A stretch of DNA of 64,000 nt from NCBI RefSeq assembly GCF_009914755.1, contig NC_060940.1; one strand, written 5' to 3'. Shown in pieces: positions 6,885 to 46,890 of the stretch (positions are counted from its first letter, which is position 1; every line of letters starts with the position of its first letter). The notes under the pieces are model-generated. The model was not told the origin of the DNA. It saw only the letters and a program-made list of their open reading frames with translations, and did no database searches. Both the position numbers and the translations under genes were made by a program. The stretch is from the human T2T-CHM13v2.0 reference genome, Homo sapiens.

Positions 6885-7030
6885 CCGTGTGGTGGTTAAG
6901 AGCGAGGGCTCGGGAGTCAGGGCGCCTGGGTTCGAACCCTGACCCCGTCGCTCTTGGCTGTGTGACCTTGGACAAGTCGCTTAATTTCTCAGAGTCTCCG
7001 TATCCCCACCTGTAAAGCGAGAGGATGCGA
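6885..7030 (+). mobile_element. MIR SINE with intact B box
   Basis: gtggttaagagc...ctgggttcgaaccct...gctgtgtgaccttggacaagtcgcttaa...ctgtaaa matches the MIR head and core. Confidence 0.85.
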
Positions 7031-34524: not shown

Positions 34525-34530
34525 TGTCAT
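34525..34530 (+). CDS. CLEC16A: CLEC16A exon 6, 6-nt microexon TGTCAT (inserts Ser-Leu)
   Basis: ttccttattccag|TGTCAT|gtaagt; gives VYKVSLDNQ as in the CLEC16A sequence I recall; phase 1-1. Confidence 0.88.
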
Positions 34531-37031: not shown

Positions 37032-38265
<1,234 letters not shown>

Positions 38266-39195
38266 GGAATAATTATCCAGAATTATGTAAAAGAAGCAGA
38301 ATTGATCTTGTTTTTACTTTTTTTTTTTCAAGTATATACAGTTAGACGGATAGAAATGTGACATCTATATTTTAGATGTGACTACTACTAGGAGAGGTAA
38401 AAATGTAGAAAAAACAGACATTAGGGTTATAAGTCCCAAAATGTTAATAGTGGATATTTGTTAGTGGTGGGTTTGAGACTTTGAATTCTATTTGCTTTTA
38501 TATTTTAATTTGCTGTTGTCAAAAATGATCATCTATCAGTTGGGTAATAACAACAATACAAACAAAATGCCTAGCTAGCATTTGCTGCATACTCCTTGGG
38601 GGTGGTGAAAGCATCCTCACCAGCTGTTTCTGGAGTGTGAGACTGACTCCACCCAAGAGACATTACCCCCTGGCCCCCCATCCCCAGCATGCTGTTGCTA
38701 ACTGCTGGGAGACGGAGACCTCCAGGGCAGGGGCCTGGGGGAGGGGTGTCATGTCTTTGCTCTATGTCTGCATGTCGTCAGGGCCACTGGGGTGGCCACG
38801 GCTCTGGAGGCCTGCTTTTCTCTTTAGAACTCCTCTGGAGCATTTTAATTACAGTGGATTTATTGCTCCATTAGTGCTGCTTATCTGGGGAGCCAGGGGA
38901 TCTTGCCACAGTGGCTAGTAGCTGTGCTTATGCAGTGGCTTGCTGGAAGAGTTTAGCAGCATTTTGCTTTGTTTACCTCATTCTGGGAGACCCCAGCAGT
39001 CCCCTGAAATTGATTTTAGTAAACCTGCCCATTTTCCCTTGTATATCTCCCCAGTAGGGGCCAGGATAAGTGTCTCTTGAGACTAACTCAAATATGTGGA
39101 TGAACTCACAGTGACCTAAGTCTCAGGCCATTGATGTTAGGCTCAAAGGCTCCTAGTGTTGGCCTCCAGGCTGAGGTGGTCATTTCTCCTGGCAG

Positions 39196-44848: not shown

Positions 44849-44962
44849 GTCTTCTTAATTATACATCATGCACCGCTGGTGAACTCGTTAGCTGAAGTCA
44901 TTCTGAATGGTGATCTGTCTGAGATGTACGCTAAGACTGAACAGGATATTCAGAGAAGTTCT
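44849..44962 (+). CDS. CLEC16A: CLEC16A exon 10 (114 nt; VFLIIHHAPLVNSLAEVILNGDLSEMYAKTEQDIQRSS); gene continues beyond the window
   Basis: tttcttttttttccgccag acceptor; TCT|GTAAGT donor; phase 0-0; no further recognisable exon up to 64000. Confidence 0.95.
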
Positions 44963-45826
44963 GTAAGTCATTAGCTTCGGGACTGACCTTAACAGGAAAC
45001 CATTGCTCATTTTGCTAATCTGTGTGTTTCTCTAAAATCAGAAACTAACATTCTGAATATATAGCAGTGATGATGCATAAGCTGGTCCGGGATTCAGTGA
45101 ACCTAATCAGAGTCTTGATTGCATACCCAAGAGAAGCTGGGATCAGGGACCACCTGGATTTGATTGATTGTGTGTTCTTAAACATGGAATTGTACCACTC
45201 CGGGCCTTAGGTTGCATATCTGTGAGACACTGTTATCGGGACACAGTGAGAAAATGCCTTATCAGAGGAACTAATGTCTACAGAAGTTGGGCGATGAACA
45301 TCCATGAATGACTCAGGCCCCAGGTGAGGGCAGTAGAGAGTGGCGAGGGGTGTGGCAAATTGGAGAGTGTATGCCACCTTGGCGAGCAGCTCCTGTTCTA
45401 CCCCAGGCTGCTGCTGTTCTGCAGGAATATGGATGTAGGATTACTAGGTTTTTTCATGTTTCTAGAGAAGCGGGAAAAACGCATTGTTACGTGTAATCTC
45501 TAGTTTTAAATGATCATCAAGCTTTGGACTAAGTAGCATGTTTGTGGTCTGCAGGAAGGAGCTTTGGCGTTCCATTTGGTACACTGCTGAGGGAAAACAC
45601 CTGATGGCCAGTGTTGTGACTTCTCTTGAAGCTTTTCCATCTTGTCCTCTGTATATCTCTGCTGTCATCTCTCAGATCCTGCTCACATGTCCTGAGCTCC
45701 AGCTGCCTTAATCCTGGTCTGACTTGCTTTTCCCCCAGCATGTCCAGCATTTGTGCCTTTGAACCTGCGCCTTTACCGTACCTACAGCCTGGTTCCTGAT
45801 GCACCTGGTTCCCTCTTTTCAAAGGT

Positions 45827-45985
45827 CTTACCCACTCTAAGCTCCTTATGGCAGGGATCTCACCTGTCACTGAATCAGCTGCAGTCTGGGCTGCACAAAT
45901 GCTCATCTCACTTATGCGGAGCCCAGGCTGCAGCTGATTCAGTGACAGGTGAGATCCCTGCCATAAGGAGCTTAGAGTGGGTAAG
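45827..45985. repeat. Inverted repeat with 66-bp arms (45827-45892 / 45920-45985) and 27-nt spacer
   Basis: Arms are reverse complements at 65/66 positions; the ORF track shows the same peptide AADSVTGEIPAIRSLEWV on both strands. Confidence 0.97.
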
Positions 45986-46890
45986 TGAGATGAGCATAGT
46001 GCGTTTTATACAAGGGCTGTTTCATAAAGGTTTCCTCTCTGCAGCCAGGTGCTCAGGCAGTGGCCAGGCTGGTAAAAGGGCCAGCTCGCCCTGGGGTAGT
46101 AGATTTGCTGCCCCACCTACATGAATGGGTGGAATGTGACCCTGTGGATGAAAGGCCACCACTGCATGGAGTACAATTACAAGAGGCCCCTGCCCTTCCA
46201 CTGGTTTTGGTGTATGATGGTCTGGCCAGGTCATTTTGTTATTCAGGGGAGCATTAGCGCCTCTGAAAAGCTTCCCAGAAACTCTGTCCTTGTTAGTGGT
46301 GGTGGCATTAGTGAATTGATTGGGGCCTTTTCATGGCCCCTGTCTGGCCTATCCCTTTCTTGATTCATTCAGCAGTGTTGATGGAGCTCTTTCTTTGGGC
46401 CAAGTATCATGCTAGTTCTGGGGATACACAATGTCATAAAGAGTCTGTGCCATATTCGAGCTTTACAGTACAGTAGAGAGGTGGACATGGATCAGATATG
46501 CAAATAACTCACTGTCTTAACTCTTATAAGCGCTCTAAAGGGAAGAAGTGTTTGGTGAGAGGCTTTGGCCTAGAGGTGACAGGGGTGATGTGTTAAAGAT
46601 TTTCCTAGTGGTCCATCTCATGACAACACACGGTCTGGCAAATGTACAGCTGACTCAGAGTTTATGGGGCCCTAGATATTTCTCTGCAACTTTCTTAAAC
46701 TAGCGTTTGCTAAATGAATGTAAGTCACGGAAGGCTGAGTCAGCAGAATCAGCAGGGCCTCCAGTTAGAGGTGCAGAGTGCCCTGCCAGCCACCTGGTCT
46801 CGGGCAGGTTGTTTCACTCCATTTAGAAAACAGGCAGCGCAAGCCCTGCTCTAGAGAGCTGATGGAGATGGGGGCAAAATATAAAGTGCC

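What the first reader, a model, noticed from the sequence alone, without database searches (positions are those of the whole stretch)
45795..45986. The hairpin coincides with an in-frame, stop-free 156-nt candidate cassette exon whose donor is buried in the stem
Seen: branch-like CCTGAT (45795-45800), pyrimidine tract and ttccctcttttcaaAG|G give an acceptor at 45824/45825, two bases before the left arm. A consensus donor TGG|GTAAGT sits at 45980/45981, at the end of the right arm. The 156 nt between are phase 0-0, matching intron 10, and encode 52 residues without a stop (VLPTLSSLWQGSHLSLNQLQSGLHKCSSHLCGAQAAADSVTGEIPAIRSLEW). A second strong donor CAG|GTGAGA (45948/45949) is also in the stem. 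A stronger acceptor upstream (tctgacttgcttttcccccAG, 45738) would instead give a poison exon (TGA at codon 8). Inference: the stem may silence these cryptic donors, making a structure- or editing-gated splice switch. Chance co-occurrence cannot be excluded.
Basis: partly seen in the sequence, partly recalled or inferred. Interest (0 to 1): 0.7.

Follow-up and report, generated by a model that had tools for sequence, protein, structure and literature searches.

The report
Hairpin-locked pseudoexon in CLEC16A intron 10
A unique, almost perfect 71-base-pair hairpin in an intron of the autoimmunity gene CLEC16A is bracketed by good-looking splice signals, but nothing found here shows it is ever spliced in, so it is best read as a silent decoy exon locked in double-stranded RNA.

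Summary
This covers the acceptor at 45824/45825, the donors at 45948/45949 and 45980/45981, the 156-nt phase 0-0 stop-free frame, and the TGA at codon 8 from the upstream acceptor. The hairpin is real: 71-nt arms, 58 bp perfect, -156.5 kcal/mol, z -18.8. It is single-copy in the genome.

Both donors pair well with U1 (-11 kcal/mol), but opening them costs 16.6 and 26.5 kcal/mol, against 6.7 for the real exon 10 donor. Masking is therefore plausible.

I found no sign of use. The 52-residue peptide occurs in no CLEC16A isoform in a library that holds 1820 CLEC16A proteins. Its only hit is a colinear gene-caller artefact. Four literature searches found nothing on it.

Three things are new:
- A second 16-bp helix (45899-45914 with 45982-45997) re-masks the 45980 donor if the left arm is destroyed.
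- The donor that would actually be freed (45948) gives a 124-nt frameshifting exon.
- One poor titi-monkey gene model uses the upstream acceptor.

Verdict: a structure-masked pseudoexon, a known kind. The regulated-switch idea is unsupported.

The parts
44849..44962 (+). CLEC16A exon 10 (real), donor TCT|GTAAGT; the coding sequence ends in phase 0
   Evidence: Hub table. GT/AG boundaries and the coding sum of 1071 nt were checked. U1 duplex is only -5.4 kcal/mol and opening energy is 6.7 kcal/mol.
45719..45738 (+). Upstream acceptor ctgacttgcttttcccccAG; an exon starting at 45739 meets TGA at codon 8
   Evidence: matrix score 6.12. The orthologous acceptor is used in one titi-monkey gene model, P0021.
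45723..46121 (+). Stop-free stretch of 133 codons in the cassette's frame, running past both candidate splice sites
   Evidence: The same frame, read with TGA as W, gives database protein P0002.
45795..45800 (+). Branch-like CCTGAT, with its A 25 nt before the acceptor G
   Evidence: Opening energy 5.6 kcal/mol.
45805..45824 (+). Pyrimidine tract and AAG acceptor (A at -3, an uncommon base there)
   Evidence: score 6.14; real acceptors score 1.26-11.01. The tract plus AG opens for 3.3 kcal/mol.
45825..45980 (+). 156-nt pseudoexon, 52 codons, no stop
45827..45897 (+). Left arm (P) of the inverted repeat. It starts with CTTACC, the complement of the 45980 donor
   Evidence: Its first ~24 nt, with the left flank, are matched by the titi model.
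45899..45914 (+). Q: a 16-nt segment in the loop, perfectly complementary to 45982-45997
45915..45985 (+). Right arm (P'), holding both donors
45946..45954 (+). Donor CAG|GTGAGA in mid-stem. With the 45825 acceptor it gives a 124-nt frameshifting exon
   Evidence: score 7.13; opening 26.5 kcal/mol, or 5.6 with the left arm shuffled; U1 -11.6
45978..45986 (+). Donor TGG|GTAAGT at the base of the stem
   Evidence: score 4.59; opening 16.6 kcal/mol, still 12.4 with the left arm shuffled; U1 -11.1
45982..45997 (+). Q': the partner of Q. It overlaps the last 4 nt of the right arm and positions +2 to +6 of the 45980 donor

Best explanation
The locus is a single-copy, near-perfect palindrome in CLEC16A intron 10. 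It most likely arose by replication template switching, that is, by inverted copying of adjacent sequence. It happens to sit just behind a usable acceptor, and its right arm carries two strong 5' splice-site motifs.

The two arms are only 17 nt apart, so the RNA should close into a 71-bp duplex as soon as the right arm is transcribed. That locks both donors, and essentially the whole 'exon' body, in double-stranded RNA, where U1 and single-strand-binding exon-definition factors cannot bind. The result is an unused pseudoexon, not a cassette exon.

The donors are simply the reverse complements of U1-like left-arm words (CTTACC, CTCACCTG). If the right arm is the copy, they were created already paired to their template.

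Shown here: the anatomy, the thermodynamics, uniqueness in the genome, and absence from annotated proteins. Inferred: masking in vivo, the template-switch origin, and the lack of any regulatory role.
For: Hairpin: 71-nt arms, 96% complementary, 58 bp perfect. Free energy is -156.5 kcal/mol against -69.9 +/- 4.6 for shuffles, and 0 of 200 shuffles fold as well. It is the only near-perfect, closely spaced inverted repeat in the window: 4 pairs were found, and two of the others lie in masked repeat sequence.

Single copy: only the two self matches in the 3.1-Gb genome, and both flanks are unique too. So it is not a transposon family.

Masking: opening energies are 16.6 and 26.5 kcal/mol, against 6.7 for the real exon 10 donor. 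The U1 duplexes are -11.1 and -11.6 kcal/mol.

No use seen:
- The cassette peptide hits 1 of 1,835,955,588 representative proteins. That hit is the colinear translation of 45687-46412 with seven TGA codons read as W.
- The word-indexed search gave 15 candidates and the same single hit.
- As a positive control, the exon 8 peptide finds 1820 CLEC16A proteins, including human isoforms X3-X9, X13 and X32 and ape isoforms.
- Among the 120 listed, 79 carry the exon 10 anchor. Of these, 77 continue into exon 11, 2 continue otherwise, and none has the cassette.

Published precedent for unused 5' splice sites held in stems: PMC1935003 (abstract). For template switching making perfect intronic hairpins, with repeated events at one locus and inverted fragments of 28 to 83 bases: PMC10710096 (abstract and section 5).
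Against: By the crude matrix, the splice sites are as good as the median real CLEC16A site, and only 1 of 9 real internal exons beats both thresholds. Four of the five best pseudoexon pairs in the window fall at this one locus, so the clustering of signals is more than a typical intron stretch shows.

Protein libraries cannot reveal low-level or NMD-degraded inclusion, and no RNA-seq junction data were available.

One gene model in a New World monkey does splice exon 10 to the upstream acceptor.

The order P-Q-P'-Q' is not what a single inverted duplication gives, so the origin story needs at least two switches and is untested without outgroup genomes.
Confidence: 0.72

Rival explanations
1. 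A latent cryptic or poison exon. It is normally masked, but spliced in at low level, or when the duplex is unwound, edited or disrupted by a variant. It would give mostly NMD substrates (45739 start with TGA at codon 8, or the 124-nt frameshift through donor 45948) and rarely the in-frame 156-nt form.
For: The donors have strong U1 complementarity and the acceptors score in the mid-range of real ones. With the left arm shuffled, donor 45948 opens for 5.6 kcal/mol, less than the real exon 10 donor. A titi-monkey gene model uses the upstream acceptor. PMC1935003 shows that such masked donors can be activated (abstract).
Against: There is no human isoform or paper with it. The titi model is a poor one: only 2 of the 10 window exons are matched exactly or nearly, and the rest is Alu-like peptide. 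No other protein shares that exon. Donor 45980 stays masked by the Q:Q' helix.
Confidence: 0.15
2. The hairpin matters for its own sake, as an ADAR substrate or a precursor of small RNAs made from the intron, and the splice-like motifs are irrelevant bystanders.
For: It is a long, near-perfect intramolecular duplex. Rfam gives sub-threshold matches to several miRNA-precursor models on both strands. Intronic template-switch hairpins have become miRNA genes (PMC10710096, abstract).
Against: None of the 14 Rfam matches reaches its gathering score; the best is 51.2 bits against 81. The stem is about twice the ~35 bp preferred for pri-miRNAs, a figure stated in PMC10710096. No miRNA gene is listed in the hub table. 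No small-RNA or editing data could be consulted.
Confidence: 0.08
3. A genuine regulated in-frame cassette exon that inserts 52 residues after residue 357 of CLEC16A, gated by the stem.
For: It is phase 0-0, stop-free, 156 nt, with usable splice-site motifs.
Against: The peptide matches no Pfam family and occurs in no CLEC16A isoform. The open frame is one of 32 of that length in the window and runs past both splice sites. A near-perfect palindrome codes its two halves from one sequence, which is not how conserved protein segments look. In the titi model the stretch between AWFL and KGLTHSKLLM differs in length and frame from human, so the acceptor context is not conserved as such (inferred from protein).
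Confidence: 0.02

Closest known systems
Pseudoexons whose 5' splice sites are held in RNA stems (ATM and CFTR pseudoexons; Buratti et al. 2007, PMC1935003, abstract read)
   Same: Pre-existing donor-like sequences lie deep in an intron, sit in stem structures and are not used. Exposure by changing the structure is the proposed route to inclusion.
   Different: In those cases activation was shown experimentally in patients and minigenes; here nothing is shown. This stem is far longer (71 bp, near perfect), covers the whole exon body, and has a second back-up helix over one donor.
Template-switch mutations that create perfect hairpins in primate introns (Monttinen, Frilander and Loytynoja 2023, PMC10710096, abstract and section 5 read)
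   Same: A reverse-complement copy of adjacent sequence, near-perfect pairing, an intronic site, and possibly more than one event at the same locus. The fragment length lies within the 28-83 bases they report.
   Different: There is no outgroup reconstruction here, so the event itself is not demonstrated. The P-Q-P'-Q' order needs two switches. The locus is not mentioned in the one supplementary file held.
Known CLEC16A alternative splicing: three splice variants of 24, 23 and 21 exons (PMC10179542, passages) and the alternative 5' splice sites of exon 11 that lie 48 nt apart (PMC9670805 and PMC10325915, passages)
   Same: Same gene; the neighbouring exon 11 is alternatively spliced.
   Different: None of these events involves intron 10 or the hairpin.
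Inverted Alu pairs in introns, the usual long intramolecular dsRNAs of human pre-mRNA (recalled general knowledge)
   Same: A long intronic duplex, which is expected to be a substrate for dsRNA-binding proteins.
   Different: This one is single-copy, not repeat-derived, shorter, far closer to perfect, and has a 17-nt loop. A typical inverted repeat pair lies in the same window at 37810-38066, at 81% complementarity.

Membership tests
Alternative cassette exon of CLEC16A | Acceptor and donor motifs at both ends, frame kept, no stop | tested here: met
Alternative cassette exon of CLEC16A | Present in transcripts or annotated isoforms | tested here: not met
   None of the library proteins carrying CLEC16A sequence has the 52 residues, and the positive control gave 1820 CLEC16A proteins. 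The hub table lists no extra CLEC16A exon. RNA-seq junctions could not be tested.
Alternative cassette exon of CLEC16A | Conservation of the exon and its splice sites in other species | tested here: inconclusive
   Only one titi-monkey protein model covers 45739 to about 45851. The start of the left arm is conserved, but the acceptor context differs in length and frame. No primate DNA was available.
Structure-masked pseudoexon | Donor-like sites lie inside a stable stem | tested here: met
   (opening 16.6 and 26.5 kcal/mol against 6.7 for a real donor)
Structure-masked pseudoexon | Inclusion when the stem is disrupted, and loss again when it is restored | not testable with these tools
   In silico only: shuffling the left arm frees donor 45948 (5.6 kcal/mol) but not donor 45980 (12.4 kcal/mol).
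Poison (NMD) exon | Inclusion brings a premature stop | tested here: met
   A 45739 start gives TGA at codon 8. The exon 45825-45948 is 124 nt, a frameshift.
Poison (NMD) exon | Evidence of inclusion, typically raised when NMD is blocked | not testable with these tools
   Only one low-quality titi gene model uses the upstream acceptor.
Template-switch-generated hairpin | Near-perfect reverse-complement copy of adjacent sequence | tested here: met
Template-switch-generated hairpin | Explained by one switch-and-return event | tested here: not met
   The order P-Q-P'-Q' is not the reverse complement of any contiguous neighbour. At least two switches are needed. The 7-nt and 4-nt microhomologies were noted by eye.
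Template-switch-generated hairpin | Absent from the ancestral or outgroup sequence | not testable with these tools
   No primate genomes are held. The titi model shows only that the left arm start with its left flank is old.
miRNA precursor | Match to a curated family, or a stem of about 35 bp | tested here: not met
   The best Rfam score is 51.2 against a gathering score of 81. The stem is 71 bp.
Palindromic transposon (MITE-like) | Other copies in the genome | tested here: not met
   Only self matches. The tool notes that its counts are lower bounds.

The most novel reading that the evidence does not exclude
A primate-lineage template-switch event copied U1-like left-arm words into two strong 5' splice sites that were paired to their own template from the moment they arose. 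This would be an exon 'born masked'. It would be double-locked by a second 16-bp helix, and would be released only when the duplex is unwound, edited or broken by a palindrome-prone deletion. CLEC16A, an autoimmunity and Parkinson's risk gene, would then gain a 52-residue insert or, more likely, an NMD isoform.
Probability: 0.08. Interest if true: 0.55.

Novelty: new member of a known kind. Interest (0 to 1): 0.25.

Why it matters
If the masked exon can be released, deep-intronic variants or small deletions in this palindrome could lower CLEC16A output or alter the protein. That would bear on how non-coding variation at 16p13 is interpreted.

It would also be a clean natural example of one mutation creating splice sites and their silencer together.

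As the evidence stands, it is mainly a caution. A very good-looking in-frame pseudoexon can be fully explained by a local palindrome plus chance. The obvious minigene test also needs redesign because of the second helix.

Tried and rejected
- **Known RNA family:** rejected. There were 14 Rfam matches at E up to 10, all below their gathering scores and all generic hairpin look-alikes.
- **Repeat family or transposon:** rejected. Only self matches for the hairpin and for both flanks.
- **Protein-domain meaning of the 52 residues:** none. 0 Pfam families at E up to 10.
- **The single library hit P0002 as evidence for a coding exon:** rejected. It is the colinear translation of 45687-46412 with seven TGA codons read as W, so it runs straight through both splice sites.
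- **Orthologous or independent DNA from contaminant contigs:** a 24-mer of the arm gave 0 matches in genome contigs. The tool notes that records close to the window's genome may be left out.
- **Supplement of the template-switch paper:** 1 file held, with no CLEC16A or chr16 entry. Its datasets S1/S2 were not visible and could bear on whether this locus was catalogued.
- **Other proteins sharing the titi exon:** none among proteins of 393-1253 residues.
- **Splice-site scoring:** MaxEntScan and SpliceAI are not available. The matrix used instead rests on frequencies recalled from memory and only ranks sites within the window.

Full report
**The observation**

- CCTGAT lies at 45795-45800.
- A 12-pyrimidine tract ends in caaAG|G, with the AG at 45823-45824. 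This is the only AG after the branch-like A at 45799.
- The donors are CAG|GTGAGA at 45948/45949 and TGG|GTAAGT at 45980/45981.
- A second acceptor, ...ttttcccccAG, ends at 45738.

The ten annotated CLEC16A exons in the window all have GT/AG borders, and their coding parts sum to 1071 nt, so intron 10 is phase 0. An exon from 45739 has TGA at codon 8.

**The hairpin**

The arms are 45827-45897 and 45915-45985: 71 nt, 96% complementary, 17 nt apart. The first 58 pairs are perfect. A T.G pair, 7 more pairs and a ragged end near the loop follow.

As RNA, 45790-46010 folds at -156.5 kcal/mol. Shuffles average -69.9 (sd 4.6), giving z -18.8, and none of 200 folds as well.

The hairpin is single-copy. 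The 3.1-Gb genome gives only the two self matches, and both flanks are unique too. Rfam gives 14 weak matches, none at its gathering score. Among closely spaced inverted repeats in the whole window, this is the only near-perfect one (4 pairs listed).

Q (45899-45914, in the loop) pairs with Q' (45982-45997, just past the right arm, overlapping it by TAAG). The order is therefore P-Q-P'-Q'.

**Is the exon-like arrangement more than chance?**

*The open frame.* It is unremarkable. In these introns 9.7% of 52-codon windows are stop-free (5306 of 54511). The frame here is open for 133 codons (45723-46121), running 34 codons before the acceptor and 47 past the donor. The window holds 32 open stretches of that length.

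*The splice sites.* No MaxEnt or SpliceAI is available. I ranked sites with a position-weight matrix whose frequencies I recalled from memory, so only relative ranks within the window mean anything.
- The candidates score 6.14 and 6.12 (acceptors) and 4.59 and 7.13 (donors).
- Real CLEC16A sites in the window score 1.26-11.01 (acceptors) and -0.06 to 8.56 (donors).
- At the candidate's own thresholds there are 35 decoy donors and 28 decoy acceptors in 56,221 intronic bases. There are 3 pseudoexons of 50-300 nt, and only this one is both a multiple of three and open.
- Those thresholds were set after the fact. At looser cut-offs the numbers grow as follows:

| Acceptor / donor threshold | Real internal exons passing (of 9) | Pseudoexons | Multiple of 3 and stop-free |
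|---|---|---|---|
| 6.1 / 4.5 | 1 | 5 | 1 |
| 5 / 4 | 2 | 16 | 1 |
| 4 / 3 | 4 | 49 | 3 |
| 2 / 1 | 6 | 304 | 11 |

So this is the best-looking pseudoexon in the window, and 4 of the top 5 site pairs fall at this locus. Even so, it is the sort of object long introns contain in numbers.

**Would the stem hide the donors?**

Yes, on thermodynamic grounds.
- In a 501-nt context, making the 9-nt donor windows single-stranded costs 16.6 kcal/mol (45980) and 26.5 kcal/mol (45948). The real exon 10 donor costs 6.7 kcal/mol.
- Pairing with the U1 5' end (a recalled 11-nt motif) returns -11.1 and -11.6 kcal/mol. The real exon 10 donor returns -5.4 and the best real donor -12.5.
- The pyrimidine tract and AG stay accessible at 3.3 kcal/mol.
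- The whole exon body would be duplex. By general knowledge, that should also deny single-strand-binding exon-definition factors their sites (inference).

A new point concerns what happens when the left arm is shuffled (10 shuffles). Donor 45948 drops to 5.6 kcal/mol, but donor 45980 stays at 12.4. The reason is that Q:Q' closes over it, which the fold of 45898-46010 alone shows directly (-44.3 kcal/mol, z -3.75).

The donor that would be freed gives a 124-nt exon, which is a frameshift, not the in-frame 156-nt form.

**Is it used?**

I could not see RNA-seq junctions. The proxies are negative.
- The 52-residue peptide hits one protein among 1.84 billion representatives, and the same single protein in the 5.8-billion library (15 candidates).
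- That protein, P0002, equals the straight translation of 45687-46412 with seven TGA codons read as W. It is a gene-caller product on genomic DNA, not a spliced isoform.
- The control works. The exon 8 peptide finds 1820 CLEC16A proteins, with human isoforms X3-X9, X13 and X32 and ape isoforms held separately.
- Of the 120 proteins listed, 79 contain the exon 10 anchor. Of these, 77 run on into exon 11, and 2 (non-primate-like variants) continue differently and were not examined. The other 41 lack the exact anchor. None of the 120 has the cassette.
- The hub's table lists extra exons of other transcripts for CIITA but none for CLEC16A. I read this as none of the 40 RefSeq transcripts having an exon here.

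Papers:
- CLEC16A with 'cryptic exon' gave 2 papers, neither on this site.
- With 'poison exon' it gave 0.
- With 'pseudoexon' it gave 1, which concerns the alternative donors of exon 11.
- With 'intron 10' it gave 8, none on splicing here by their listings.
- With 'hairpin' and 'intron' it gave 9 (8 listed), none relevant by their listings.
- A review names three CLEC16A splice variants (PMC10179542, passages).

**A result partly against my reading**

One listed protein, P0021 ('Protein CLEC16A, partial', Plecturocebus cupreus, 716 aa), joins exon 10 to HVQHLCLRTCAF... This is the orthologue of the exon starting at the upstream acceptor 45739, and the human TGA codon is an R there.

The model runs on to ...KGLTHSKLLM, which matches human 45822-45851 in another frame. 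After that it turns into Alu-like peptide.

The model is poor. Of the ten window exons, only exon 8 is matched exactly and exon 10 at 37 of 38 residues. The rest looks repeat-derived. No other protein of 393-1253 residues shares this exon. I take it as a gene predictor liking the same acceptor, not as transcript evidence.

It is still useful in two ways.
- The start of the left arm together with its left flank (K-G = AAAGGT) exists in a New World monkey. So the left arm is old, and the right arm is the likelier copy.
- Between AWFL and KGLTHSKLLM the two species differ in length and frame (a 7-residue gap in tblastn). This is inferred from protein, not DNA.

**Origin (inference)**

The locus is a unique, near-perfect inverted copy of adjacent sequence, which fits replication template switching. 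That process is reported to have made thousands of intronic hairpins in primates. Inverted fragments of 28 to 83 bases and second events at the same locus are described (PMC10710096, abstract and section 5).

One switch cannot give P-Q-P'-Q'. A fold-back primed on AGCCCAG/CTGGGCT (45920-45926 with 45886-45892), followed by a second jump at the shared TAAG/CTTA, would give it.

There is one mismatch (T.G) in the ~59 best-copied pairs. With recalled primate substitution rates this puts the event at roughly ten million years ago, with very wide limits. It could be ape-specific or older.

If the right arm is the copy, both donors are reverse complements of left-arm words and were paired from birth.

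**Verdict**

The cassette-exon and regulated-switch half has no support.

The kind is known: unused donors held in stems (PMC1935003, abstract). Interest is modest unless junction data or outgroup alignments show use or constraint.

Noticed in passing
window 45899-45914 and 45982-45997: A perfect 16-nt inverted repeat interleaved with the main arms (order P-Q-P'-Q'). On paper this is a pseudoknot-like topology. In practice it is a back-up helix over the 45980 donor, and a clue that more than one template switch made the locus.
   Followed up: yes
window 45687-46412: A public protein library holds a 242-residue 'protein' (P0002) that is this intron translated straight through, with seven TGA codons read as tryptophan. 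It is a gene-calling artefact on human DNA.
   Followed up: yes
window 45739-45851 (protein P0021): A titi-monkey CLEC16A gene model splices exon 10 to the orthologue of the 45739 acceptor and then into Alu-like exons. The human TGA at 45760-45762 is an arginine codon there.
   Followed up: partly
window 37810-37921 and 37955-38066: An inverted repeat of 112 nt, 81% complementary, 33 nt apart, in intron 7. It lies inside two stretches masked as repeats (37598-37928, 37948-38276). It is probably an inverted Alu pair, the usual kind of intronic dsRNA.
   Followed up: no
window 34525-34530: Exon 6 of the selected CLEC16A transcript is a 6-nt microexon with a CAT|GTAAGT donor. A 2026 preprint on neural microexons mentions CLEC16A (PMC12871342; search listing only).
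   Followed up: no
window 6914-6953: A short overlapping palindrome around GGGTTCGAACCC, just downstream of exon 1.
   Followed up: no
window 44960-44968: The real exon 10 donor TCT|GTAAGT has no exon-side match to U1 (duplex -5.4 kcal/mol). On that measure it is weaker than both masked decoy donors about 1 kb downstream.
   Followed up: partly
window 45789-45813: CCTGGTTCC occurs twice, 15 nt apart, just upstream of the acceptor. The titi model differs in length exactly here, which suggests a small lineage-specific indel in the branch and pyrimidine region.
   Followed up: no
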